Of a stretch of DNA of 64,000 nucleotides, positions 36,413 to 48,177 are shown in pieces. Position 1 is the first letter of the stretch, and the number at the start of each line of letters is the position of its first letter. The DNA comes from an uncultured Rhizobiaceae bacterium (GTDB taxonomy: Bacteria > Pseudomonadota > Alphaproteobacteria > Rhizobiales > Rhizobiaceae): the NCBI GenBank assembly GCA_951813045.1, contig CATOTF010000001.1, forward strand, positions 287,956 to 351,955, written 5' to 3'. The notes under the pieces were generated by a model that had not been told where the DNA came from, ran no database searches, and saw only the letters and a program-made list of their open reading frames with translations. A program made the position numbers and the translations under genes.

Positions 36413-36830
36413 ATTCAAAATACAGTAACGATTTTAACGCGAGGCGGTGCACCAGATTGTTGAGCGAGGGTATCCGGTTGCGGAGGTTTCGAAACGATTA
36501 GGTGTCAGTACGCACTCCCTTTATGCGTGGGTGAAGAAGTTTTCCCGGTCTGACGGATCCGGTTCAGATGATCAGCAATCCGGCAAGATACGGAGGCTGA
36601 AGCTGGAACTGGCACGGGCCATCGAGGAGCGCGACATCCTAATTTGGAGCAGGATAAGAAAACAGTCCGGTGAACTGTTTTTCCTGCGGAACGGCCACCG
36701 TGTACTTCGCCCTGAATATGTAAAAGGAGGGTGCAACACGAAGTACACGTTCATGGTTGAGCATCGATCTTCGTTATTGTGCTCAATCTTAATCTGTCGA
36801 CCTCAAACAACACACGAACCGGTGATGTGA
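36413..36830 (+). pseudogene. IS3-family transposase remnant (orfA plus a stub of orfB), frameshifted and truncated
   Basis: The HTH part is intact: HQIVERGYPVAEVSKRLGVSTHSLYAWVKKF. The upstream KYSNDF... segment is in another frame. An extra roughly 50 bp separates ERDIL from ATVYFA. The KYTFMVEHR orfB start then ends abruptly. Confidence 0.6.
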
Positions 36831-37023
36831 AGATAGTCAGGATGATCCTCTCCGCCCTGTAAATGCTCAGGCGGATTATGGAAGCTGACGTCAACAAATA
36901 TCTGGCTGAGCTGGAAGACATCGAGTTGCTGCATGCCGATAAGGTCAGACATTTCGAAGCCATGGGGTTGGAGGCTGACAATGATGATGCGCGGTCTTCG
37001 CCGGTTACAAAAGGTTCCGGAGA

Positions 37024-37812
37024 TTGCTGTTGAATCTGGTTGGTAATCAGCGCGGTCATGTCGGCGAACTGGCCGTCCATCTGATGAAGCCGGAATACGA
37101 GAAGGCGGTCGTTCATCAGATCAGAGGGTTCATGTGCAACGATCTACGCTCTTCCCTGCAAGAAAGTGCTGCAGTTGCACGAACAACCAAGTGTTCCGAA
37201 CATCTTTATTCGCTGAGCCTCAATCCGCCCCATGAAGCAGAAGTCTCCGCACGAGAGTTTGAAGCCGTCGCTGACAGGGCCAAAGAACGCTTGGGACTAT
37301 TTGGTCAGCCGCGTCTTCCGGTCATTCACGAGAAGATTGGTCAAGACGGCCAGTTGCGCCGCCATGCCCATGCCGTGTGGTGCCGCATTGATGTGGAAAG
37401 TATGACAGCGATCCACATTCCCTTCGATCACACCAAGCTTCAGGCATCGGGCAAGGAATTGTTTCTGGAACATGGCTGGGAACTGCCGGCAGGTTATCTC
37501 AACAAACAGGAACGCGATCCGCTCAACTTCACTCTGGAAGAATGGCAGCAGGCCAAGCGGAGAAAGAAAGACCCGAAGGTCATCAAACAGGCCTTTCAGG
37601 AAGCCTGGGCTTCATCGGATGGAAAAGCCTCCTTTGTAGCGGCATTGAAGGATCACGATTATATTCTCGCCTGTGGCGACCGGCGCGGCTTTGTTGCGGT
37701 GGATAATCAGGGCGAAGTCTACGCGGTTGCCCGCTATGTGGGTGTCAGAACCAAAGAAGCTGGTGCCCGGTTGGGCGATCTGGATGATCTGCCTTCTGTT
37801 GAGCAGGCGTAG
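37024..37812 (+). pseudogene. Conjugative relaxase, MobA/VirD2-type relaxase domain only (terminated after 262 codons)
   Basis: VVHQIRGF...YSLSLNPP...HEK..RRHAHAVWCRID...FTLEEWQQAKR matches the relaxase/mobilisation nuclease family. A stop follows VEQA, where full-length proteins continue. Confidence 0.7.
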
Positions 37813-37949
37813 TAGATGGCGGTTCAACTTCACGATATCGACCCCAAACAAGCGTTCAAGGCCAGCCGAGGGCTGGAAGGAATCAATGATGCTATCGGGC
37901 TCGATACTCATGACCGCGACACCTTCTTTGAGCAGCGCCGTTCAAGTAA

Positions 37950-38684
37950 TCTTCAGAGCAAGCTTGGGAGAACGGGTATGATCAACTCCAGCGCGGCGAT
38001 GTGCTGGTGATTGATGAAGCAGGCATGATCGGCTCGCGGTAAATGGCACGCTTTATCACCGAAGCAAGGAACCGTGGCGCAAAGCTGGTGCTTGTTGGTG
38101 ACGCGGAGCAACTCCAGCCTATCGAAGCCGGGGCACCTTTTCGGGCGATCACTGAACGATCAGGGGCTGCCAGATTACGGGAAGTGCATCGCCAGAAAGA
38201 AGTTTGGCAACAAAAAACTTCCCAGCATCTGGCCAAGGCCGAAACCGGAAAGGCACTTCAGGCCTATGATGAGAATGATCGCATTGTTCTGTTACCCGGC
38301 TGCGATGAGGCCATTGCCACCCTTGTTGAAGACTATGTCGCCGATATCTGCATCAATAGCGCCAATGCCACTCGTCTCACCCTTGCTCATCGCAGGGCTG
38401 ATGTGAAAGCGCTGAATGAACACATACGCGACCGGCGCAAGGAATTGGGGGAACTCGTCGAAGACATCTCCTGCAGCACCACCCATGGCAAACGACCCTT
38501 CAGCACCAGTGACTGTCTTGTCTTCACCCGCAATGATCGTGATCTTGACATCAAGAACGGTATGCCGGGCACGGTGACAAAAATCTCCAAAACCAGGATC
38601 ACCGTCCGTCTGGATGATCCCGCCCCTGATGGCGATCCGCGCAAGCAGCCATTCACCACCGTCGCCAAACATTTGTCCGGTTAA
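37950..38684 (+). pseudogene. TraA-type relaxase helicase-domain fragment with an in-frame TAA
   Basis: GDVLVIDEAGMIGSR-TAA-MARFITEARNRGAKLVLVGDAEQLQPIEAGAPFRAI is a contiguous RecD/AAA_30 Walker-B region. It is interrupted by an in-frame stop at 38040-38042. The Walker A part and the C-terminus are missing. Confidence 0.7.
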
Positions 38685-38944
38685 TCGCAAAGAGCGCCAG
38701 CCACAATGAATAAACCACAACTCGTCAACCAACACCTCAGGCCGCTTTTGGCTTTTTTTAACCCTTGTCGCTCGCGGGATATTCTCAATCGGCGGCACCT
38801 GGAAAGATGGCCCGATGTCGACATTAACAAGGTAAATTCAATATCGCCAAAAGGTGGTCTTTTACGTGATAAAATTATTTGGGATATTCGATGCTTAACC
38901 AGTTTTTCCACCTGATTATTGGATAATAGGAGCGTTATCTTAAC

Positions 38945-40591
38945 TTAATTACTGACCGGTTTTGCTGCTTTATTTGGTACTTCTGAAATGCAACTGTTAA
39001 TTACGTCCCACATCAATTCGGGGTGTGAAGCGGCTGCAAGGTGACAGCCTTCCTTTAGAACCGTAACGTCTGCTGACGGGTGATTAGTCGCAAATTTTCG
39101 GATCAAATCCTGATGGGTAAATATGTCATTTGGCCCATGGAGAAAGTGGATCGACAGATGTTCCGGGACCTCACGCAGAACTGCTTCTTGTGATCGTGAT
39201 GCCAGACGAAAGTCGCCTGCAATGCCCAGTGGAGAATTTCTATGCAAGGCTTGGTACCAATCAAAACATTGGCCAGCACCGTATTTCCCATTGAGCACAC
39301 CAACGTCAATCTCGCAGCCCTTGAACAATCGTCTCAAAACGAATTTTGTCGCTTGCTTGTTTGAAAATGTTGTTTTCTGGAACTGCCGAACGAGGGTGTC
39401 GTAAATGTCGGTTTCTCCGGCTAATTTCCTGATACCTCCAAAAAAACTCGATGAAAACGACCGGGAATCAGAATTTATCTTCATCAAATTGATAGATGGA
39501 ATAATAATCTTGCTGAATAAATCGCCATCTAATTTTGCTATCAGCATTGCATAAAAACCGCCGGTGGCATGACCCACAACCGGAATGGGCTTTGGGCATA
39601 CCTGTTTGACAAAGAGTGTTAAATCTTCGACCGTTTTCTCTATCATACCACCGTCGAGATGAACGTCACTATAGGTTTGATTATCCAGATATCCACCTCG
39701 GATGGGCGCAATTAGCCGCAGCTTGTGTTGCTCAAGTTGTGCTTTTGCATTCAGCAATAAAATGGGAAACAGATACCCGTGGATCAGCAGAACGGGAGTG
39801 CCGTCCTGAGGACCTAATTCCCAATACCGCATCAATCGGCCGTTGGACAAACGTTGCGCCGACAGTTTGATATAGTTTCCGAGAAAATCCGTTGTGAACT
39901 TCTCAGTCGCATCCATATGAGACGTTTCCGCTTCACACAGATACAGAATGTGAATCATTTGACCCATTAACAGGCGCACGATTTCCAACTGACCGGTGCA
40001 GTGCAGTTTCGAAGACGCCTTCTTTAATTGCGAGCGCTTGGTTTCTACTGAAACATTATCTGCAACCGCTGCTTCGCCGGGTCCAAAACCCATCATTAAT
40101 TGATAAACCATGCGTTGTTCGGCGGCGGTCAGGTTTGCTGTTGAATTGAACAGGCGCAATATTTCAAAGAACAGTTCTTCTGTTACGAGAATTAATCGAC
40201 GAAGCGTCGTGGGCAACTCTGTGCTGGTTGCTGGCGTATACGGAATGCACCAAATAAAACCATTTGTGCCGTGTGTCGGGGTTAATCTGCCGGCATGAAG
40301 CCCATTGTCAGCGGCATCTTCCACAATGCCGGAAACGTCGTCATCGGTTTTATCGAATATAAGTCGTGATGACATGGAATCGATATTGGAGACGCCGCCC
40401 CGAACAAATCTGCCATCAAGTTGAAATTCCGCCCAACATAGGCTGCTGATGATCCGTGTATCATTGCGAAGATAACGTGAAACAACCTCGCGGCTCGAAA
40501 TAACCGCTTCATCAGAAGGGACTAATGAAAAAACCTCCTCAACAGTCTCCTGGAGAGATTTATCACTATCACGCACCGTATATTGCCCCAT
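38945..40591 (-). CDS. Fusion protein: unknown N-domain, LuxR-type HTH and alpha/beta-hydrolase fold with the nucleophile Ser replaced by Ala
   Basis: Likely start at ATG 40591 (GAGGA 7 nt upstream); the alternative start is 40642. The HTH is LTAAEQRMVYQLMMGFGPGEAAVADNVSVETKRSQLKKASSKL. The hydrolase part has LLIHGY, the elbow VVGHATGGFY instead of GHSxGG, then GPNDIF and EGCHLAAASHPE. The hydrolase-coding half is visibly AT-rich; 60-nt spot counts are about 28-37% GC, against 50-55% in flanking operons. Confidence 0.7.
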   Translation of the reverse strand: MGQYTVRDSDKSLQETVEEVFSLVPSDEAVISSREVVSRYLRNDTRIISSLCWAEFQLDGRFVRGGVSNIDSMSSRLIFDKTDDDVSGIVEDAADNGLHAGRLTPTHGTNGFIWCIPYTPATSTELPTTLRRLILVTEELFFEILRLFNSTANLTAAEQRMVYQLMMGFGPGEAAVADNVSVETKRSQLKKASSKLHCTGQLEIVRLLMGQMIHILYLCEAETSHMDATEKFTTDFLGNYIKLSAQRLSNGRLMRYWELGPQDGTPVLLIHGYLFPILLLNAKAQLEQHKLRLIAPIRGGYLDNQTYSDVHLDGGMIEKTVEDLTLFVKQVCPKPIPVVGHATGGFYAMLIAKLDGDLFSKIIIPSINLMKINSDSRSFSSSFFGGIRKLAGETDIYDTLVRQFQKTTFSNKQATKFVLRRLFKGCEIDVGVLNGKYGAGQCFDWYQALHRNSPLGIAGDFRLASRSQEAVLREVPEHLSIHFLHGPNDIFTHQDLIRKFATNHPSADVTVLKEGCHLAAASHPELMWDVINSCISEVPNKAAKPVSN

Positions 40592-40639
40592 TAAAATCCT
40601 CAACCAGGGGCATCCTAATAGAAAAAATACGAACTCAAA

Positions 40640-40653
40640 CACCCATATGGGTG
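40640..40653. promoter_or_regulatory. Perfect 14-bp palindrome CACCCATATGGGTG in the divergent regulator/autotransporter intergenic region
   Basis: Read directly from the sequence. It lies 49 nt upstream of the preferred regulator start and 130 nt upstream of the autotransporter start. Confidence 0.3.
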
Positions 40654-40782
40654 ATGCGAATCAATCTCATCACTTCTAAGCTTGAAACATAAATGGACAG
40701 TTTAGGTTGCTGTTGAACTTGTTGGTGAACAAAGCAGTAAATAAGCGCCAGAGCCATTGGGATTTCTAGGGGATTATTTGAA

Positions 40783-42882
40783 ATGTATTGCCAGTCGATT
40801 GAACTGAAGGAAATCTTCAGATCAAGAAGAGCGCTTTTACTGTCAGCCAGTGTTTTGGCCATTACAACGGGGTTAGTGGGTTCAAATCAGGCCTCGGCTC
40901 AATGTATACCGGTGGGATCAACGCTGACCTGTACGGGAGATTTATCCGGCGGCTTTGAAGATAACGATCTAACAATTGACCGTATCGAAGTGCTGAACCT
41001 TACAAGTGATTTCGGTAGGAACGGGTTAACTTTCCGAAATCCCGACAATGTCGATATTACCGTTGACGCAAACCTTGGTGCGTTTTCAATCAATCATGGT
41101 GACATTGCCACTTTTCGGAATTTCCGCAATGGGTTCAACATTCGGACAGGTGGCGGGATTCAAGGGTCACTTATTGGGGATATTAATGGGGCTGATCCAG
41201 GGCAGGTTCAAAGTTTTGGGACCAACACGTTCTTAAACAATTTTGGCTCACTGGGGCTTGATGCCGGCGGTGCAATCAACTTCACCCATACAGGCGATAT
41301 TAACGTTGAACGATTTGACACACGCGTCTTAAGAGACACAGCGCAGACTGCAACCGGCAGGTTCGGTGCGATACGCGCCGAGGCTGATACGGGCGATGTT
41401 TCCCTTACCAACATTGGCAATATCGGTATTGATGGTGGTCAACGTACCGTCGCGTCACTTGATTTTGGTAGCGACAATATTGAAGTTCAAGCTGTACAGT
41501 TTAGTAATCAGTTTTCGGAACATTCTGGTATTTTTATCCAGGGTGACAACGCCCTAACGCTGCGCCAAGACGGAGACATAACAACGACCGGCGGCGGAGC
41601 AAACGCATCTGGGGAGACCCGCGAAGCTGAAACTGGTGATGTAGTTGACGCCCGGGCAGATGGCTCTCGCGGTGCCGGAGTTTCAATTGTTCGTTTCACA
41701 AGGCGCGACGGCGTTATAGATACAACTCTGCCAGATCTCGATAATGTTTCAGTTGATATAAATGGTGATGTTACAGTCACGCAGGGAGACATCGTAAGCA
41801 CAGCGCGCGCAACCAGTGGTGTAGGAGCGAACGATATTGGGACGGCCGTCGCCATCACCAACCAACGATCGTCACTGATTGGGGTTCAGATCACAAATGG
41901 CTCAGAAATAGATGTATCTATAGACGGCAACGTCAACGTGACGGGTGGAAATGGAACTGCTCAGGCAACAACTGTTTCCAACGATGGCATGACACGTGGA
42001 TTTACCCATGCCAATGCGCGTGGTGTTTTTGCAACCGGGGTCAACGTGCGCCCCGACACACGAGAGGCGACAGATCCAAGAAACGCAGAGCTTGCGATTG
42101 AGGGTAACGTTACGGTAAAGGGCGGCGATGCCATGGCGCGCGTTGATGGGAATGCCGTGCCTGAAATCAATACTCTCATTTCAGATATTCCCAATTTCAC
42201 CCCGTCAAATGCCTTGGTGGCATCGGGCGGCAGTGCTAGCGGTATAACCTTCACGGGTCAGTTATTTTCCATTGATGGTGAGATTAATGCCAATGGTGGC
42301 GCAGCGACTGGTTTTGTTGACGGACTGGGACTTTCGGGATTGGTCACAGGCGGTAGTGCCAATGCATTGAACATTTTTCTTGGGGCCACCGATCTGTCAA
42401 TGGTTGGGAATATTACCAGCACATCAAACGGAGGCGACGCCGAATTGAGTTTGACCGGAAGTGATGGAACCGGCATCGCCCGAGGTGGTGGATCAACCGG
42501 TTCAGTTTTCGCCGGTACAGGAACGCATACGCAAACAGCACGCCTTACCTCAATTGGAGGAAACGCTATTGTCACCGGTGCAGGTAATGCTGCAGCGGCG
42601 GGAGGGACTGCAACCGGGTATGTTGTATTTGATGGTGCCGATGATCCCACATTTATGTCCATAAACCAGGCTGACATATCTGTAATAGGCGGGAATGCAA
42701 CTAATTCCACGAATGGTGTGGCTACTGGTGGTGCAGCGACAGGAATTATTATCCAGATCGGCCGGGAATCAATCGCTAACATGCGCAACGATCAGGCCAT
42801 TACTGCAATTGGCGGTGATGCTGTTCGAATGGGAACTGCAACAGAGGATCAAACAACACGTGGGGGGGCGCGATCGGAGTGA
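40783..42882 (+). CDS. Autotransporter passenger, N-terminal segment with signal peptide (frame A of a split gene)
   Basis: 699-aa ORF with an extended signal peptide (RRALLLSASVLAITTGLVGSNQASA). The sequence is Gly/Thr/Asn/Asp-rich and repetitive, consistent with a beta-helix. It has no beta-barrel domain and ends 14 nt after a G7 tract. Confidence 0.7.
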   Translation: MYCQSIELKEIFRSRRALLLSASVLAITTGLVGSNQASAQCIPVGSTLTCTGDLSGGFEDNDLTIDRIEVLNLTSDFGRNGLTFRNPDNVDITVDANLGAFSINHGDIATFRNFRNGFNIRTGGGIQGSLIGDINGADPGQVQSFGTNTFLNNFGSLGLDAGGAINFTHTGDINVERFDTRVLRDTAQTATGRFGAIRAEADTGDVSLTNIGNIGIDGGQRTVASLDFGSDNIEVQAVQFSNQFSEHSGIFIQGDNALTLRQDGDITTTGGGANASGETREAETGDVVDARADGSRGAGVSIVRFTRRDGVIDTTLPDLDNVSVDINGDVTVTQGDIVSTARATSGVGANDIGTAVAITNQRSSLIGVQITNGSEIDVSIDGNVNVTGGNGTAQATTVSNDGMTRGFTHANARGVFATGVNVRPDTREATDPRNAELAIEGNVTVKGGDAMARVDGNAVPEINTLISDIPNFTPSNALVASGGSASGITFTGQLFSIDGEINANGGAATGFVDGLGLSGLVTGGSANALNIFLGATDLSMVGNITSTSNGGDAELSLTGSDGTGIARGGGSTGSVFAGTGTHTQTARLTSIGGNAIVTGAGNAAAAGGTATGYVVFDGADDPTFMSINQADISVIGGNATNSTNGVATGGAATGIIIQIGRESIANMRNDQAITAIGGDAVRMGTATEDQTTRGGARSE
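42862..42868 (+). repeat. Homopolymeric G7 tract at the junction of the two autotransporter reading frames
   Basis: The sequence tgggggggcg lies inside the 64-nt window (42819-42882) where both frames are open. Confidence 0.95.
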
Positions 42883-45566
42883 CCGCAGTCACATTCGTTT
42901 CAAATGGCAGTGAAACGGTTACAGTGGAGAACTCAAATTCAATTACCGCCCGAGGCGGAGCGGGAACAGATTTACGTGGGGCGGCAGTCGGTATTTCCTC
43001 TGTAGATGCTCTATTTGGATCCGGGATGCAATCCGATGGTATCGTTCGCGTAACAGGCACAATTATTGCCGATGGTGAGGGAACTGATAACGACTTAACC
43101 GGGGCGCAGTCGGAATCAACGGGTGTGATTGTAAACCACTCCGGAACATCGACATTGCAAGTGGATGGCGGCACTGTCACTGCAACCGGTAATCACACTC
43201 ATGGACTTTCCACATCGTCAGTTTCAGCCAATATAACGTTGGAAAACGGAGCCCAGGTTTCAACTGTGGGTACAGATGCCCATGGCATTTTGATAACACC
43301 AAACACTGCGTTTTTTTCCAGTGACGGATCGCAGTTCAGAGCTGCAACCACGAGTATTCGGATTGACGACGGTTCAACGTTGACGAGCACCGGTGGAACC
43401 GGGATTTTTGACAATGGCAATACGACAGAGCGTGTAGACGACGGAACCGGTAATTTTGTATCGCAACTCCGCGAGGCTGATAATGCCACAACCGTGGACC
43501 TCGCGGGCGCCATCGCTGGTGGTAGCGGCATGGCAATTGACCTTGGGAATGGGGAAGACGCACTGATATTGCGCTCCACCGGGGATGTTACTGGAAATGT
43601 GACCTTGGGTAGCGGTGACGACATGTTCAGTTTCGAAGAAGGATTTACAACGACAGGCCGAATTAGCGGTGGAGATGGTAACGATATAATTGACGCAACC
43701 GTCGATCCTAATACGATCCGTGTGCTCGATTTTCAAGCACTTCCCGTCGATGACTTTGAAACCATCGCCAAAACAGGTGCCGGAACACTCAATATCCAAG
43801 GTCCGGGTATTTCGGGTCCGGCGCTTCTTCAGGCTGATGGTGGCCTTTCGCAAGTTTTGTCGGACCAGATAGACCTTAATATCGAAGTAAATTCCGGGGC
43901 AATCGTTTCAACCGATAATCGAGTTGGTGATGTTACGACACTGGGTACCGGTCGATTTCAAGGGACCGGTACGACCGCGAGTGTCAACAACAATGGTGTT
44001 CTTGCACCCGGCAACTCAATCGGGGCAATTGATGTCACAGGTGATCTGGCCTTGAATGCGGGGGGTACATTTGATGTGGAAATTATGTCGGATAACACGT
44101 CCGATCTGATCAATGTTGCTGGCGACGTGTTCTTGGGCGGCAATCTCCAAGTGACCGCACTTGGTGCGCTGACAGGGTTTTCCACGGCTAATCAATTTAC
44201 CATCATTGATGCTGCCGGGGGGATACCGGGTTCATTCTCCAATGTAGACGGCACTGGTTTACTTGATTCCACGGCTGAAAATCTGCCTGATCTCAATATT
44301 CAAGCCAATGTCGTACCAGATTCGGACGGTGGCGAAGAGTTGCAGCTTAACCTCGTGGCTATCGGTGCAACTCCCCCTGTTGACCCGCCGGTCGAACCCC
44401 CCGTTATGCCGCCTGTTGAACCTCCCGTCACACCACCTGTTCAACCCCCTATCGAGCCACCGGTTTTACCTCCTGTCGCTCCACTATCTGACGTCTCCGA
44501 CAAATCCATACATCCCAATGCGGTATTAGCGGGTGCGGATGTTGGGCGTGATTTCACCGATATCATGCAGCGTCGCACACGGATTGGCGGTGCATCAGGA
44601 GCGCAGGTGGCTTCCTTTGCATTCGATCTTTCCGGATCGGTGGTCGCCGTTGGCCAGAATACCGAGGCTGCATTGAATACGAATGGCAATGCCCGCCATG
44701 TTGAAGGCTTTTCGATATGGACGTCCGGCATCAGTGCCTTTCGTGATGTTGACAATAGTGGCGCGATCACCGGTTTTGACGCGACAACCGGCGGCTTTTT
44801 GATTGGCGTTGACCGCACCTTTGTGAGCGCTACCGCAACATATCAGTTTGGCGTCTCAAGCGGTTATTCAGTAACTGATGTCGATTCCGGCCCTTCGTCG
44901 GCCGATGTTGATACGTTTCATATTGGCGCATACGCCCGGATTGAAGCCGGGGCCCTGCTGGCATCCGCCGCTTTTGCTTACGGCTCTCAGGACTATGAGT
45001 TTGATCGCGTCATCCAGCTTGGTGGCGGCGCCACAGCGGTTGCGAGTGGCGATGCGGATGGGGATGTATTCTCTTTTTCCGCAGCCGCCTCTTATGACAT
45101 TGCACCAATGCTCGGGATTGACCGTGGAGGCAAGTTCCGTTTCGCTCCGCTGGTTCGGTTCGACCATGCTGATGTAAGCAGAGATGCTTTCACCGAGACG
45201 GGCGCTGGCATTTTGAACCTGACGACTGCGGAGGACAATTTCAACCGCACTTGGGGATCAATCGGACTAGAGATGTCCGGCACGGTGGAGACCAGCGCCG
45301 GCATGGTGGTGAACCCGTTCCTGGAATTTCGTTATGAGCGGGCATTAAACGACCCGGTCAATTCGACAAGTTCAGCAATTGCCGGCGTAGCGGGAGCGAA
45401 TTTCACCGCGCTTTCAGCCTCACCAGATCGTAATTCTTTTGCTGTAGGCACTGGGATTAGTGCAAAGCTGACCGATATGATTGAGGCCAATGTTCGCTAC
45501 GACGGTACATTCTCAGGTAATTTTGAAACCCACCGCGCAAGCGGAGGTATAACGATTAGGTTTTGA
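42879..45566 (+). CDS. Autotransporter passenger C-terminal part plus outer-membrane beta-barrel translocator (frame B of the split gene)
   Basis: 895-aa ORF with only a GTG start and no signal peptide. It has the junction region NNNGVLAPGNSIGAIDVTGDLALNAGGTFDVEI, a Pro-rich linker and a C-terminal barrel ending GGITIRF (aromatic terminal residue). Confidence 0.8.
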   Translation: MTAVTFVSNGSETVTVENSNSITARGGAGTDLRGAAVGISSVDALFGSGMQSDGIVRVTGTIIADGEGTDNDLTGAQSESTGVIVNHSGTSTLQVDGGTVTATGNHTHGLSTSSVSANITLENGAQVSTVGTDAHGILITPNTAFFSSDGSQFRAATTSIRIDDGSTLTSTGGTGIFDNGNTTERVDDGTGNFVSQLREADNATTVDLAGAIAGGSGMAIDLGNGEDALILRSTGDVTGNVTLGSGDDMFSFEEGFTTTGRISGGDGNDIIDATVDPNTIRVLDFQALPVDDFETIAKTGAGTLNIQGPGISGPALLQADGGLSQVLSDQIDLNIEVNSGAIVSTDNRVGDVTTLGTGRFQGTGTTASVNNNGVLAPGNSIGAIDVTGDLALNAGGTFDVEIMSDNTSDLINVAGDVFLGGNLQVTALGALTGFSTANQFTIIDAAGGIPGSFSNVDGTGLLDSTAENLPDLNIQANVVPDSDGGEELQLNLVAIGATPPVDPPVEPPVMPPVEPPVTPPVQPPIEPPVLPPVAPLSDVSDKSIHPNAVLAGADVGRDFTDIMQRRTRIGGASGAQVASFAFDLSGSVVAVGQNTEAALNTNGNARHVEGFSIWTSGISAFRDVDNSGAITGFDATTGGFLIGVDRTFVSATATYQFGVSSGYSVTDVDSGPSSADVDTFHIGAYARIEAGALLASAAFAYGSQDYEFDRVIQLGGGATAVASGDADGDVFSFSAAASYDIAPMLGIDRGGKFRFAPLVRFDHADVSRDAFTETGAGILNLTTAEDNFNRTWGSIGLEMSGTVETSAGMVVNPFLEFRYERALNDPVNSTSSAIAGVAGANFTALSASPDRNSFAVGTGISAKLTDMIEANVRYDGTFSGNFETHRASGGITIRF
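44373..44483 (+). repeat. Tandem 12-nt coding repeat, about 9 copies of PPVx (PPVDPPVEPPVMPPVEPPVTPPVQPPIEPPVLPPVAP)
   Basis: Read from the translation of frame B. It lies between the passenger and the translocator domain. Confidence 0.85.
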
Positions 45567-45769
45567 AGGTGAACGGGCCCTTGAGTGACGACATATCAAC
45601 AGCTAACGGACAGCACAAAATAGGGGGTCAAGCGCGTTTCTATGAACCGAGTTAAACGAAACTCGCATTGAAACATCGAAATGTTCATCGCGGTCAGTAT
45701 GTTCCATTTTGATAAGTCAATAATGAATCATCGAGTTTGATGTGTGAGAGGACGAATATAAGTAATGCA

Positions 45770-46195
45770 ACCAAGACTGAGGAAAAGAATACTGACGCGC
45801 TGGCGAACACGCAGGAAAAATCAGTAAACAGCGCCGCCGAAGGCGCTACTGCGGAGGTTGATGCCGAAGCGGTAAAAAAAGTAAGCGTACTGCGCGCGTA
45901 AGTGCGTGAAAGCTTTGACAAGATCGTCATGGCCATTTGGGCGAGCCGGTCGGATGAAATGGAATCCAAAGTCAAAAACCAGATTAAATCCGGCACATGT
46001 CCCGTACGGCTTGCGACGGAAAACTGGAACTCAGGAACCAACAACTGGTTGTTGGATGTCATCGCGCCGGATTTAAAAACCGCAGAATCAGCCATCGTAA
46101 AATTCAAACAGGTGGTAAGATAGAGTTCCCTGGAATTGCACTCCGTCATCACCCGTCTGGTGGATGATGAAGCATTGAGAACCATGGGCACGGAA
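45770..46195 (+). pseudogene. HlyC/RtxC-family toxin-activating lysine acyltransferase remnant
   Basis: IWASRSDEMESKVKNQIKSG..RLATENWNSGTNNWLLDVIAPDL parallels E. coli HlyC ...CSWANLSLENEIKYL...AEDWTSGDRKWFIDWIAPFG. There is no usable start codon. In-frame stops lie at TAA 45899-45901 and TAG 46121-46123, with protein-like sequence continuing after the TAG (LELHSVITRLVDDEALRTMG). Confidence 0.5.
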
Positions 46196-47047: not shown

Positions 47048-47323
47048 ATGGCACGAGGCCACACAGACGAATTCAAGCGTGAAGCGGTGCGTATTGCGCT
47101 GACCAGCGGACTTACCCGGAAACAAGTGGCATCAGATTTGGGGGTCGGCTTTTCGACGTTATCGAAATGGATACAACAATCCCGGCCTGATGACCTTCCA
47201 CCATCGGTTGATATTGATCTGGCCAAAGAGAATGAGCGGCTTCGCAGAGAGGTTCGTCTCCTCACGGAGGAGAGGGAGATATTAAAGAAGGCAACAGTGT
47301 TCTTCGCGGGTCAAAGCAAGTGA
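47048..47323 (+). CDS. IS3-family transposase OrfA (HTH)
   Basis: 91-aa ORF: MARGHTDEFKREAVRIALTSGLTRKQVASDLGVGFSTLSKWI, a leucine-zipper-like region and the ILKKATVFFA end. Confidence 0.88.
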   Translation: MARGHTDEFKREAVRIALTSGLTRKQVASDLGVGFSTLSKWIQQSRPDDLPPSVDIDLAKENERLRREVRLLTEEREILKKATVFFAGQSK

Positions 47324-48177
47324 GATTTGCGTTTGTCGAAGAACACAGGAAACACGTTCCGGTGGATCGGCTTTGCCATATTCTGAATGTTACATCGCGT
47401 GGTTATCGTGCCTGGCACAACCGCCCTGTTAGTCAACGGCAGCGCGATGACATGGTGGTTCTGGCGCACATCCGTGAACAGCATCACTTGAGCCTTGGCA
47501 GTTATGGTCGCCCGAGAATGACGCAGGAGTTGAAGGAAGCCGGCCTTGCTATTGGTCACCGCCGTGTTGGCCGCCTGATGCGCGACAACGGCATTCGAGT
47601 GGTCAGAACACGCAAATACAAAGCTACGACCGATAGCAATCACCGCTTCAACATTGCGCCTAACTTGCTGGGGCGGAACTTCCAAGCGGATAAACCCAAC
47701 CAGAAATGGGCAGGTGACATCAGCTACATCTGGACCCGTGAGGGCTGGCTGTATCTGGCAGTGATGATCGATCTACATTCACGCCGTGTGGTGGGTTGGG
47801 CTGTCAGCAACCGGTTGAAGAAAGACTTGGCATTGCAGGCTCTCAACCGGGCTTTGGCCCTTCGAAACCCACCGCCGGGCTGCATTCATCATACGGACCG
47901 TGGCAGTCAATACTGCTCTCATGATTATCAAAAACGAATGCGTGAACTGAAGTTTAAAGTGTCCATGAGCCGAAAAGGCAATTGCTGGGACAACGCCGTG
48001 GTCGAGACGTTCTTCAAAACACTCAAAGCCGAACTCATCTGGCGCGGCACATGGCAAACACGACAGCAAGCAACCGACGCCCTGTTCCAATACATCAACG
48101 GCTTTTACAACAGCCGCAGAAGACACTCAGCAATAGGAGGAATGTCGCCCATCAAATTTGAACGAAAAACGAGTTAA
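47320..48177 (+). CDS. IS3-family transposase OrfB (DDE/rve catalytic domain)
   Basis: 285-aa ORF in the -1 frame relative to orfA and open from 47236. DDE region WAGDISYI...HTDRGSQY...GNCWDNAVVETFF. Confidence 0.9.
   Translation: MRFAFVEEHRKHVPVDRLCHILNVTSRGYRAWHNRPVSQRQRDDMVVLAHIREQHHLSLGSYGRPRMTQELKEAGLAIGHRRVGRLMRDNGIRVVRTRKYKATTDSNHRFNIAPNLLGRNFQADKPNQKWAGDISYIWTREGWLYLAVMIDLHSRRVVGWAVSNRLKKDLALQALNRALALRNPPPGCIHHTDRGSQYCSHDYQKRMRELKFKVSMSRKGNCWDNAVVETFFKTLKAELIWRGTWQTRQQATDALFQYINGFYNSRRRHSAIGGMSPIKFERKTS

What the first reader, a model, noticed from the sequence alone, without database searches (positions are those of the whole stretch)
38945..40591. LuxR-type HTH fused to an alpha/beta-hydrolase fold that has lost its nucleophile (GHATGG): a candidate ligand-sensing pseudo-hydrolase regulator
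**Seen in sequence.** The protein has three parts. The first roughly 170 aa form an N-terminal region I cannot assign. A LuxR/FixJ-type HTH sits in the middle (LTAAEQRMVYQLMMGFGPGEAAVADNVSVETKRSQLKKASSKL). An alpha/beta-hydrolase fold of about 300 aa forms the C-terminus.

The nucleophile elbow reads V-V-G-H-A-T-G-G, so the position of the catalytic Ser in GxSxG is Ala. The acid (GPNDIF) and His (EGCHLAAASHPE) contexts are retained.

The gene is AT-richer than its surroundings, especially the hydrolase half. It lies in a mobile-element-scarred island and is divergent from the autotransporter gene.

**Established knowledge.** Alpha/beta-hydrolase folds can act as small-molecule receptors (plant D14/KAI2, Bacillus RsbQ).

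**Inference.** This may be a one-component regulator that uses a catalytically dead hydrolase as its sensor, possibly controlling the adjacent autotransporter. I am not aware of a characterised member with this architecture.
Basis: partly seen in the sequence, partly recalled or inferred. Interest (0 to 1): 0.7.

Follow-up and report, generated by a model that had tools for sequence, protein, structure and literature searches.

The report
LuxR-like regulator with dead hydrolase domain
This gene encodes an undescribed kind of bacterial gene switch: a sensor-like domain, a DNA-binding domain and an esterase-like domain that has lost its catalytic serine, with a conserved DNA palindrome in front of it that probably lets it control itself and the neighbouring surface-adhesin gene.

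Summary
ORF 38945-40591 (-) encodes an intact 548-aa protein with four parts: an N-terminal alpha/beta domain, a GerE/LuxR-type HTH, a long conserved helix, and a C-terminal alpha/beta-hydrolase fold. The nucleophile elbow reads GHATGG (Ala342). The acid (Asp489) and His517 are retained.

It is not a fusion artefact. About 100 sequence clusters, mostly from marine Alphaproteobacteria, share the full architecture.

- The unassigned N-terminus plus HTH resembles whole LuxR-type quorum-sensing receptors by fold only. There is no sequence similarity.
- Loss of Ser is clade-specific. The window's clade has Ala/Asn/Ile, while a sister group of about 50 clusters keeps a canonical GxSxG-Asp-His triad. 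The dead domain is still strongly conserved.
- A 20-24 bp palindrome (core ACCCA-NN-TGGGT; window 40640-40653) lies upstream of the regulator in most loci. There are 12 exact hits against 0.18 expected, and the result was replicated on held-out loci. In all five loci with an adjacent autotransporter it lies upstream of that gene.

Best reading: an autoregulated one-component regulator of exported or adhesin genes, with a non-catalytic hydrolase-derived sensor or modulator domain. No characterised member was found. DNA binding and the ligand are untested. I rate it a new variant of a known kind.

The parts
38945..40591 (-). Regulator CDS, 548 aa plus stop. The start is ATG 40591, not the upstream GTG 40642.
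   Evidence: SD-like GAGGA at 40597-40601
40148..40591 (-). N-terminal sensor-like alpha/beta domain (residues 1-148; alpha-alpha-beta3-alpha-beta3-alpha). W53, G101 and W114 are invariant across both clades.
   Evidence: AF2 models. Foldseek top 35 hits are full-length LuxR-type/VqmA receptors. No sequence hit to the PDB or to LasR. Conservation.
39992..40147 (-). GerE/LuxR-type helix-turn-helix (residues 149-200). The recognition helix carries the invariant E183-T184-K185-R186.
39881..39991 (-). Long conserved helix (residues 201-237). It continues the fourth HTH helix and links it to the hydrolase domain. Q211, H214 and C219 are invariant in clade A.
38972..39880 (-). Alpha/beta-hydrolase-fold domain (residues 238-540) with a ~115-residue helical cap inserted after beta6; the conserved cap helices (residues 379-473) span 39173-39457.
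39557..39574 (-). Nucleophile elbow G-H-A-T-G-G. Ala342 (codon GCC, 39566-39568) replaces the catalytic Ser.
39125..39127 (-). Retained catalytic-acid position, Asp489 (D in 115 of 123 relatives).
39041..39043 (-). Retained catalytic His position, His517 (H in 89 of 123 relatives, Q in 22).
40637..40658 (.). Candidate operator AAACACCCATATGGGTGATGCG. The perfect 14-bp palindrome CACCCATATGGGTG is at 40640-40653. It lies 49 nt upstream of the regulator ATG and 130 nt upstream of the autotransporter ATG, and is the only match to the core in the 64-kb window.
40783..45566 (+). Divergent autotransporter gene and likely target. It is split into two frames at a G7 run (42862-42868).

Best explanation
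The gene encodes a cytoplasmic one-component transcription factor of an undescribed family.

**Proposed mechanism**
- A GerE/LuxR-type HTH sits between an N-terminal sensor-like domain and a C-terminal alpha/beta-hydrolase-derived domain.
- The protein, presumably as a dimer, binds the 20-24 bp palindrome CGCATYACCCAWWTGGGTRATGCG in the divergent promoter region (window 40637-40658).
- Through that site it controls its own transcription and that of the adjacent autotransporter adhesin gene.
- The hydrolase-derived domain cannot perform serine-nucleophile catalysis in this clade (Ser to Ala), yet it is strongly conserved. It is joined to the HTH by a rigid, conserved helix that continues the HTH dimerisation helix.
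- I propose that this domain acts as a non-catalytic ligand-binding or allosteric module that sets DNA-binding activity. It would descend from an ancestral ester- or lactone-hydrolysing 'trigger-enzyme' sensor still present in the sister clade.

**Shown:** architecture, register, clade-specific loss of Ser, constraint on the domain, conservation and placement of the palindrome, recurrent adjacency to exported-protein genes.

**Inferred:** that this protein binds the palindrome, the direction of regulation, and ligand sensing by the hydrolase domain.
For: **Architecture and folds:**

**Family size:** 64 clusters at E<=1e-30 and 103 at E<=1e-10, nearly all 520-540 aa. The one short hit examined is a frameshifted full-length gene.

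**Triad survey of 123 full-length relatives**
- Nucleophile column: Ser 55, Ala 29, Gly 10, Asn 7.
- Asp in 115, His in 89.
- The clade with >=38% identity to the window protein has Ala/Asn/Ile. The 24-34% identity group has canonical GxSxG+D+H.
- The NJ tree shows the nucleophile-less clade as monophyletic.

**Constraint**
- Mean pairwise identity in the nucleophile-less clade: hydrolase core 49.7%, cap 46.1%, N-terminal domain 37.7%, HTH 57.0%.
- Relative to the HTH, the hydrolase domain is at least as conserved as in the triad-intact clade.

**Palindrome**
- The exact core ACCCANNTGGGT occurs once per locus in 12 of 22 loci (390 kb). Expected 0.18, maximum 2 in 100 shuffles.
- With <=1 mismatch, 19 of 28 loci have it within 350 bp upstream of the regulator.
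- Held-out loci L023-L030 gave 5 further exact sites in ~101 kb, all in promoter positions.
- The recognition-helix residues ETKR are invariant across both clades, which fits an invariant half-site.

**Target link**
- An autotransporter is adjacent in the window, L001 (Hoeflea ulvae), L011 and L012 (Tateyamaria) and L027.
- The palindrome is upstream of it in all five. In L011 and L012 the genes are convergent, and the site is 67-68 bp upstream of the autotransporter start rather than next to the regulator.
- Other palindrome-facing neighbours are RTX/DUF4214 proteins or small proteins with signal-peptide-like N-termini.
Against: - The window protein itself fails Pfam GerE and hydrolase thresholds. 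The assignments rest on family profiles and predicted structure.
- Nothing shows that this protein, rather than another factor, binds the palindrome.
- Five of 28 loci (L008, L009, L017, L026, L029) have no recognisable site although their recognition helices look the same.
- Apart from the autotransporter, the neighbours are not conserved.
- The window's autotransporter is frameshifted, so the local circuit may be defunct.
- The N-terminal domain could be the real sensor.
- Signal peptides were judged only by hydropathy and by eye.
- The NJ tree has no support values.
Confidence: 0.55

Rival explanations
1. The N-terminal LuxR-receptor-like domain is the ligand sensor. The dead hydrolase domain is only a structural, oligomerisation or partner-binding scaffold and binds no small molecule. 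This would be comparable to PqsE acting on RhlR independently of its catalysis.
For: The N-terminal domain plus HTH matches whole LuxR-type receptors (QscR, TraR, SdiA, RhlR, LasR, CviR, VqmA) by Foldseek, E 5e-4 to 1e-2. W53, G101 and W114 are invariant across both clades. The PDB holds RhlR-PqsE complexes and a PqsE-RhlR fusion among the hits (8dq0, 7r3e).
Against: The N-terminal domain is the least conserved part of the protein. It has no sequence similarity to autoinducer-binding domains. TM-scores of 0.24-0.27 could be carried by the HTH alone. Retention of Asp489, His517 and the oxyanion His-Gly after loss of the Ser suggests that the old active-site pocket still matters.
Confidence: 0.25
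2. The domain is still an enzyme. It would use the retained His-Asp dyad for nucleophile-independent chemistry (general-base catalysis, as in cofactor-independent dioxygenases of this fold), so the protein is a bifunctional enzyme-regulator.
For: Asp and His are kept in about 31 of 35 members of the nucleophile-less clade, and the oxyanion His in 120 of 123 relatives. The domain is under strong constraint. The comparison with nucleophile-independent alpha/beta-fold enzymes rests on my own knowledge and was not tested here.
Against: The nucleophile position varies (Ala, Asn, Ile, and Ser in a few tips) within one clade. That is not expected for a finely tuned active site. His is replaced by Gln or Asn in some members. 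No match to any specific enzyme family was found.
Confidence: 0.08
3. The palindrome belongs to a different transcription factor that regulates this gene family's promoters. The regulator's own targets lie elsewhere and the autotransporter adjacency is incidental.
For: No binding data exist. Five loci lack the site. Neighbouring genes vary.
Against: The site travels with this gene family across unrelated neighbourhoods and several genera, and across proteins that are only ~30% identical. It is a ~20-bp inverted repeat of the size GerE/LuxR dimers bind. The family's recognition helix is invariant. In Tateyamaria the site sits at the adjacent autotransporter instead of at the regulator. It is the only such site in the 64-kb window.
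Confidence: 0.1
4. The gene is a decaying pseudogene, or an artefactual fusion of two genes, inside a mobile-element graveyard.
For: It is flanked by IS and relaxase fragments. The neighbouring autotransporter is frameshifted. The gene has low GC and its individual Pfam scores are sub-threshold.
Against: The ORF is intact at 548 aa and colinear end to end with about 100 clusters of 520-540 aa. All domains are conserved. The AF2 model is confident, pLDDT 84.
Confidence: 0.02

Closest known systems
LuxR-type quorum-sensing receptors and LuxR solos (TraR, LasR, QscR, SdiA, RhlR, CviR) and the PAS-HTH receptor VqmA
   Same: A one-component layout with an N-terminal alpha/beta sensor domain followed by a GerE-type HTH. 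They are the best fold matches to residues 1-235. The candidate operator is a ~20-bp inverted repeat in the promoter, like a lux box. The signature E...G of the HTH (E158, G168) is invariant.
   Different: There is no sequence similarity to the autoinducer-binding domain. The HTH is internal rather than C-terminal. An extra ~310-residue alpha/beta-hydrolase domain follows. No luxI-type gene was seen in the regulator-autotransporter island.
Alpha/beta-hydrolase receptors: plant D14/KAI2, Bacillus RsbQ, and the non-catalytic GID1
   Same: Same fold. KAI2-like proteins and RsbQ are among the structure and profile hits. They illustrate a hydrolase pocket with a helical cap being used for signal perception.
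   Different: D14, KAI2 and RsbQ keep the Ser-His-Asp triad and signal through separate partner proteins. Here the Ser is lost in this clade and the domain is covalently fused to a DNA-binding domain. GID1 lost its His rather than its Ser (own knowledge). The triad-intact sister clade would be the closer mechanistic parallel to D14/KAI2/RsbQ.
PqsE-RhlR of Pseudomonas aeruginosa
   Same: A hydrolase-fold protein modulates a LuxR-type regulator through physical association. Complex and artificial fusion structures appeared among the fold hits (8dq0, 7r3e, 7r3j).
   Different: PqsE has a metallo-beta-lactamase fold and is a separate polypeptide. The resemblance is an analogy only.
Generic MhpC/BioH/PcaD-type alpha/beta hydrolases (Pfam Abhydrolase_1/6, Hydrolase_4)
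   Same: The core fold, the His-Gly oxyanion motif, the elbow geometry, and the Asp and His positions. Triad-intact relatives give weak hits to 3-oxoadipate enol-lactonase, BioH, PHA depolymerase and macrolide esterases.
   Different: All hits fall far below family cut-offs, so no subfamily can be assigned. The nucleophile is Ala. The domain is fused to a regulator.

Membership tests
GerE/LuxR/FixJ-type HTH (Pfam PF00196) | Sequence match to the GerE model | tested here: inconclusive
   The window protein gives no hit at E<=10. 24 of 40 homologues hit at E<=1, best 2.6e-5. The family profile hits GerE 1fse at E=0.009, and all 15 PDB hits are of this HTH type.
GerE/LuxR/FixJ-type HTH (Pfam PF00196) | Four-helix HTH fold | tested here: met
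   The AF2 model has helices at 156-166, 171-178, 182-195 and 201 onwards, with pLDDT >90. Foldseek: VraR C-terminal domain TM 0.86-0.87, rmsd 1.7-1.9 A, prob 1.0.
LuxR-type autoinducer receptors (Autoind_bind PF03472 + GerE) | Sequence match of the N-terminal domain to the autoinducer-binding domain | tested here: not met
   PF03472 is not among the families hit by any of the 40 members. The N-domain profile has 0 PDB sequence hits at E<=10.
LuxR-type autoinducer receptors (Autoind_bind PF03472 + GerE) | Fold of the N-terminal domain (alpha-beta-alpha sandwich) preceding the HTH | tested here: inconclusive
   The top 35 Foldseek hits are sensor+HTH receptors with ~250 aligned columns, E 5e-4 to 4e-2, which is better than HTH-only hits. 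However TM is 0.24-0.27 and rmsd ~17 A, so the HTH alone could carry the superposition.
LuxR-type autoinducer receptors (Autoind_bind PF03472 + GerE) | HTH at the C-terminus; total length ~240 aa | tested here: not met
   The HTH is at residues 149-200 of 548, followed by a 310-residue domain.
Alpha/beta-hydrolase fold superfamily | Core beta-sheet/helix fold with a cap after beta6 | tested here: met
   Foldseek E~1e-10, prob 1.0, TM(target) 0.62-0.70. 37 of 40 homologues hit Hydrolase_4 or Abhydrolase models.
Alpha/beta-hydrolase fold superfamily | Nucleophile (Ser/Cys/Asp) at the elbow Sm-x-Nu-x-Sm | tested here: not met
   GHATGG, with Ala342 aligned to the Ser of GHSMGG.
Alpha/beta-hydrolase fold superfamily | Acid after beta7, His after beta8, and the His-Gly oxyanion motif | tested here: met
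   Asp489, His517 and H271-G272 are in canonical positions.
Hydrolysing alpha/beta-hydrolase receptors (D14/KAI2/RsbQ type) | Intact catalytic triad used in signal perception | tested here: not met
   The Ser is absent in the window protein and its clade. It is present in the sister clade, where 47 of 123 relatives have S-D-H.
Hydrolysing alpha/beta-hydrolase receptors (D14/KAI2/RsbQ type) | Binding of a small-molecule signal in the capped pocket | not testable with these tools
   Model coordinates and docking were not available, and no biochemical data exist.

The most novel reading that the evidence does not exclude
This family would be a bacterial one-component counterpart of D14/KAI2/RsbQ signalling. 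An alpha/beta-hydrolase that perceives, and in the triad-intact clade hydrolyses, an ester or lactone signal is fused directly to a LuxR-type DNA-binding module. It would switch on adhesins and other exported proteins in marine Alphaproteobacteria. The window's clade would have evolved from a signal-hydrolysing receptor into a purely binding, non-hydrolysing one. The palindrome CGCATYACCCAWWTGGGTRATGCG would be its operator.
Probability: 0.25. Interest if true: 0.85.

Novelty: new variant of a known kind. Interest (0 to 1): 0.65.

Why it matters
- **A missed regulator family.** If the model holds, this is a widespread but unannotated regulator family in marine Rhodobacterales and Hyphomicrobiales. 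Databases call its members 'alpha/beta fold hydrolase' or 'hypothetical protein', and LuxR-solo surveys select on the autoinducer-binding signature that this family lacks.
- **A new wiring.** It links a hydrolase-derived sensor directly to DNA binding. That wiring is not described for alpha/beta-hydrolase receptors.
- **A natural experiment.** Catalytic and non-catalytic receptors can be compared within one family, because one clade keeps the triad and the other has lost the Ser.
- **Directly testable.** There is a predicted operator and predicted targets (autotransporter and RTX adhesins), and cultured hosts exist: Hoeflea ulvae, Tateyamaria sp. 1078, Roseovarius atlanticus and Nitratireductor pacificus pht-3B.
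- **Ecological relevance.** The likely targets bear on surface attachment and algal or host association of roseobacters.

Tried and rejected
- **Plasmid megablast** of 38000-46000: no match.
- **Exact look-up of the window protein's contig:** not on record. Its cluster has one unnamed member on a 390,817-bp contig, so the source organism stays unidentified.
- **The repeat finder** with default extension missed the palindrome. It surfaced in the terminator scan and in my own palindrome scan. It is not a terminator: it has no loop, sits in a promoter position and is conserved across loci.
- **Promoter scan:** no sigma-70-like site between 40592 and 40782, so activation versus repression could not be inferred.
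- **N-terminal domain:** no sequence match to the PDB or to LasR.
- **Stand-alone N-domain+HTH versions:** the short hits of 205-237 aa looked like candidates, but the one examined (P0076) is a frameshifted full-length gene. The idea was dropped.
- **Metagenome scan:** only 3 extra loci, so held-out loci were gathered by exact-protein look-ups instead.
- **Conserved partner gene:** all-vs-all BLAST of neighbours found only the autotransporter shared across genera.
- **Hydrolase subfamily or ligand hint:** NCBIfam gives only weak, mixed ester/lactone-hydrolase hits far below cut-offs.
- **Literature:** nothing on this architecture or on the motif.
Full report
**1. The observation**

The ORF is real: 38945-40642 on the minus strand. 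The homologue alignment and a GAGGA 5 nt upstream (40597-40601) point to ATG 40591 as the start. That gives an uninterrupted 548-aa protein.

On its own the protein scores poorly. Pfam gives only sub-threshold hydrolase hits (Hydrolase_4 E=0.012, Abhydrolase_6 E=0.065) and no GerE hit even at E<=10. NCBIfam and PDB sequence searches give weak generic alpha/beta-hydrolase hits.

**2. A real family with a fixed architecture**

A word-indexed search found 39 relatives of 38-61% identity, nearly all about 530 aa and colinear over 93-98% of the query. They come from marine Alphaproteobacteria: Hoeflea ulvae, Tateyamaria, Sedimentitalea, Litoreibacter, Roseobacter, a Novosphingobium MAG and Aurantimonadaceae.

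An exhaustive profile search with residues 1-235 found 64 cluster representatives at E<=1e-30 and 103 at E<=1e-10, almost all 520-540 aa. A more distant tier of 500-520-aa proteins has the same HTH-in-the-middle plus C-terminal hydrolase layout. The one short hit I checked (P0076, 234 aa) is a frameshifted full-length gene. The gene is therefore not a fusion artefact, and no stand-alone version of the N-terminal half was found.

**3. Domains**

- **HTH.**
  - 24 of 40 members hit Pfam GerE.
  - The profile of residues 1-235 hits only GerE/FixJ/VraR/RcsB/LuxR-type chains in the PDB, always at positions 144-205.
  - The predicted HTH superposes on the VraR C-terminal domain at TM 0.87, rmsd 1.7 A.
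  - E158, G168 and the recognition-helix residues E183-T184-K185-R186 are invariant.
- **Hydrolase.**
  - 37 of 40 members hit hydrolase models.
  - The AF2 model (pLDDT 84.3, pTM 0.68) matches esterases, epoxide hydrolases, PhaZ, haloalkane dehalogenases and KAI2 proteins at E~1e-10.
- **N-terminus.** A separate model of residues 1-235 (pLDDT 81) gives an alpha-alpha-beta3-alpha-beta3-alpha domain followed by the HTH.
  - Its 35 best PDB matches are all sensor+HTH one-component receptors: QscR, TraR, SdiA, RhlR, CviR, LasR, VqmA and EL222. They align over about 250 columns with better E-values (5e-4) than HTH-only hits (4e-2).
  - The TM-scores (0.24-0.27) are low enough to be carried by the HTH alone.
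  - I therefore call it a LuxR-receptor-like sensor domain by fold only.
- **Linker.** A long helix (201-237) continues the fourth HTH helix into the hydrolase domain and is highly conserved (52.8% mean identity; Q211, H214 and C219 invariant in the close clade).

**4. The dead nucleophile**

The family profile aligns GHatGG with GHSMGG of esterase 7c4d, and gGHl with the catalytic aGHw.

In the model, Ala342 lies in the strand-turn-helix elbow. Asp489 follows beta7, His517 follows beta8, and a cap of about 115 residues is inserted after beta6. The register is therefore right, and the codon is GCC.

A MAFFT alignment of 123 full-length relatives shows how the triad positions vary:

| Position | Residues observed |
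|---|---|
| Nucleophile | Ser 55, Ala 29, Gly 10, Asn 7 |
| Acid | Asp 115 |
| His | His 89, Gln 22 |
| Oxyanion His | 120 of 123 |

Sorted by identity to the window protein:
- >=38% identity (35 sequences): Ala, Asn or Ile. Ser occurs in only four tips.
- 24-34% identity (about 50 sequences): almost uniformly GxSxG + Asp + His.
- Below 23% identity: degenerate.

An NJ tree (no support values) shows the nucleophile-less clade as monophyletic, with the Ser-bearing tips nested inside it. That fits one ancient loss with possible single-nucleotide reversions.

The dead domain is not decaying. Within that clade the hydrolase core (49.7%) and cap (46.1%) are more conserved than the N-terminal domain (37.7%) and approach the HTH (57.0%). 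Relative to the HTH they are at least as constrained as in the triad-intact clade.

**5. A conserved operator-like palindrome**

A perfect 14-bp palindrome, CACCCATATGGGTG, lies at 40640-40653. It is 49 nt upstream of the regulator ATG and 130 nt upstream of the autotransporter ATG.

Scanning the upstream regions of homologous loci for palindromes returned the same core again and again.
- **First set.** The exact pattern ACCCANNTGGGT occurs exactly once in 12 of 22 loci. The expectation is 0.18 in 390 kb, with a maximum of 2 in 100 Markov shuffles. It occurs once in the 64-kb window.
- **Extended motif.** The flanks extend it to about CGCATYACCCAWWTGGGTRATGCG.
- **Coverage.** With <=1 mismatch, 19 of 28 loci that have upstream sequence carry it within 350 bp of the regulator start. 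Two carry it about 1 kb upstream, in front of a preceding co-directional gene for a small signal-peptide protein. Two carry it only in front of the adjacent autotransporter. Five have none.
- **Replication.** Loci not used for discovery (L023-L030) gave five further exact sites in about 101 kb, all in promoter positions. L027, L028 (one mismatch) and L030 are from lineages not represented before.
- **Literature.** The motif is absent from the searchable literature.

An approximately 20-bp inverted repeat that travels with a GerE-type regulator through unrelated neighbourhoods, while the proteins diverge to 30% identity and the recognition helix stays invariant, is best explained as the family's own operator. 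That implies autoregulation. This is inference; binding is untested.

**6. Targets**

The only neighbour conserved across genera is an autotransporter. It is found in:
- the window (PF03797, 1.6e-46);
- Hoeflea ulvae L001;
- Tateyamaria L011 and L012 (phmmer 1e-55 and 8e-62 to the window's beta-domain);
- L027.

The palindrome is upstream of the autotransporter in all five. In L027 the geometry is nearly the same as in the window (133 and 65 nt against 130 and 49 nt). In the two Tateyamaria loci, where the genes are convergent, the site sits 67-68 bp upstream of the autotransporter start and not at the regulator.

Elsewhere the adjacent or palindrome-facing genes are RTX/DUF4214 proteins (L009, L010), an RTX-Hint protein and a collagen-repeat protein (L008), or unannotated proteins with signal-peptide-like N-termini. 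The theme is exported or surface proteins.

**7. Mechanism**

Most likely (about 0.55) this is an autoregulated one-component regulator of the neighbouring adhesin gene. Its activity would be set by the conserved but non-catalytic hydrolase-derived domain, through the rigid helix that continues the HTH dimerisation helix.

The triad-intact sister clade suggests an ancestral 'trigger-enzyme' or hydrolysing receptor. Its weak affinities are to ester and lactone hydrolases (PcaD, BioH, PHA depolymerase, macrolide esterases), all far below cut-offs.

Rival explanations:
- The N-terminal domain is the sensor and the hydrolase domain is a scaffold (0.25).
- The palindrome belongs to another factor (0.10).
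- Residual His-Asp chemistry survives (0.08).
- The gene is a pseudogene or an artefact (0.02).

**8. Comparison and novelty**

The protein works like a LuxR-type one-component receptor and like an alpha/beta-hydrolase receptor, but it fails defining features of both. It has no autoinducer-binding domain signature, its HTH is internal, and it has no nucleophile.

I found no paper describing this architecture. Published LuxR-solo surveys select on the autoinducer-binding signature, which this family lacks, and would miss it.

I rate it a new variant of a known kind, with a concrete and testable operator and target prediction.

Noticed in passing
window 40783-45566, frame switch at the G7 run 42862-42868: The autotransporter is one ~1590-aa gene split into two ORFs in different frames. 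Tateyamaria autotransporters align colinearly across both ORFs, and the switch falls at a run of seven G. One more G would restore the frame. This could be a sequencing error, a pseudogene, or slipped-strand phase variation of an adhesin.
   Followed up: partly
window 36447-38684 and 47320-48177: The regulator-autotransporter pair is bracketed by mobile-element remains. On the left are an IS3 OrfA fragment (36447-36830), a MobA/VirD2 relaxase fragment (37024-37812) and a TraA/RecD-like helicase fragment (38043-38684). On the right is an IS3-family integrase (47320-48177). The ~7-kb pair may have arrived as a unit.
   Followed up: partly
L015 11672-11683 and L018 8260-8271: In two triad-intact loci a second, one-mismatch copy of the palindrome (ATTACCCGTTTGGGTGTT) lies about 100-130 bp DOWNSTREAM of the regulator's stop, ahead of a small unannotated ORF. 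It may be an additional target or a transcription roadblock.
   Followed up: no
window 39881-39997 (residues 198-237): C198, H214 and C219 in and next to the linker helix are invariant or nearly so in the nucleophile-less clade. C219 is Ser in the triad-intact clade. This could be a metal- or redox-sensitive site.
   Followed up: no
L007 8960-9677 and L023 ~5000: In two Roseobacter-type loci the palindrome precedes a gene for a ~215-aa protein with a signal-peptide-like N-terminus (start MKTTLLLSTVACLFFSAAQATT) lying just upstream of the regulator on the same strand. The two genes may form an operon. The protein has no Pfam family.
   Followed up: partly
L003 2986-7772: Divergent from the regulator is an operon of three unannotated proteins: 314 aa and 964 aa, both with signal-peptide-like N-termini, and a BBP2_2 outer-membrane beta-barrel. 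It may be an uncharacterised surface or secretion system under the same palindrome.
   Followed up: no
L008, L009, L017, L026, L029: Five family loci have no recognisable palindrome within 450 bp upstream, although their recognition helices keep ETKR. L009 has a related TACCC-N6-GGGTA with different spacing at -59. This is unexplained.
   Followed up: partly
window 38945-40591 vs the whole window: The regulator gene has GC 0.461 and GC3 0.457, against 0.512 for the window and GC3 0.59 for a nearby ABC-transporter gene. This is consistent with horizontal acquisition of the island.
   Followed up: partly
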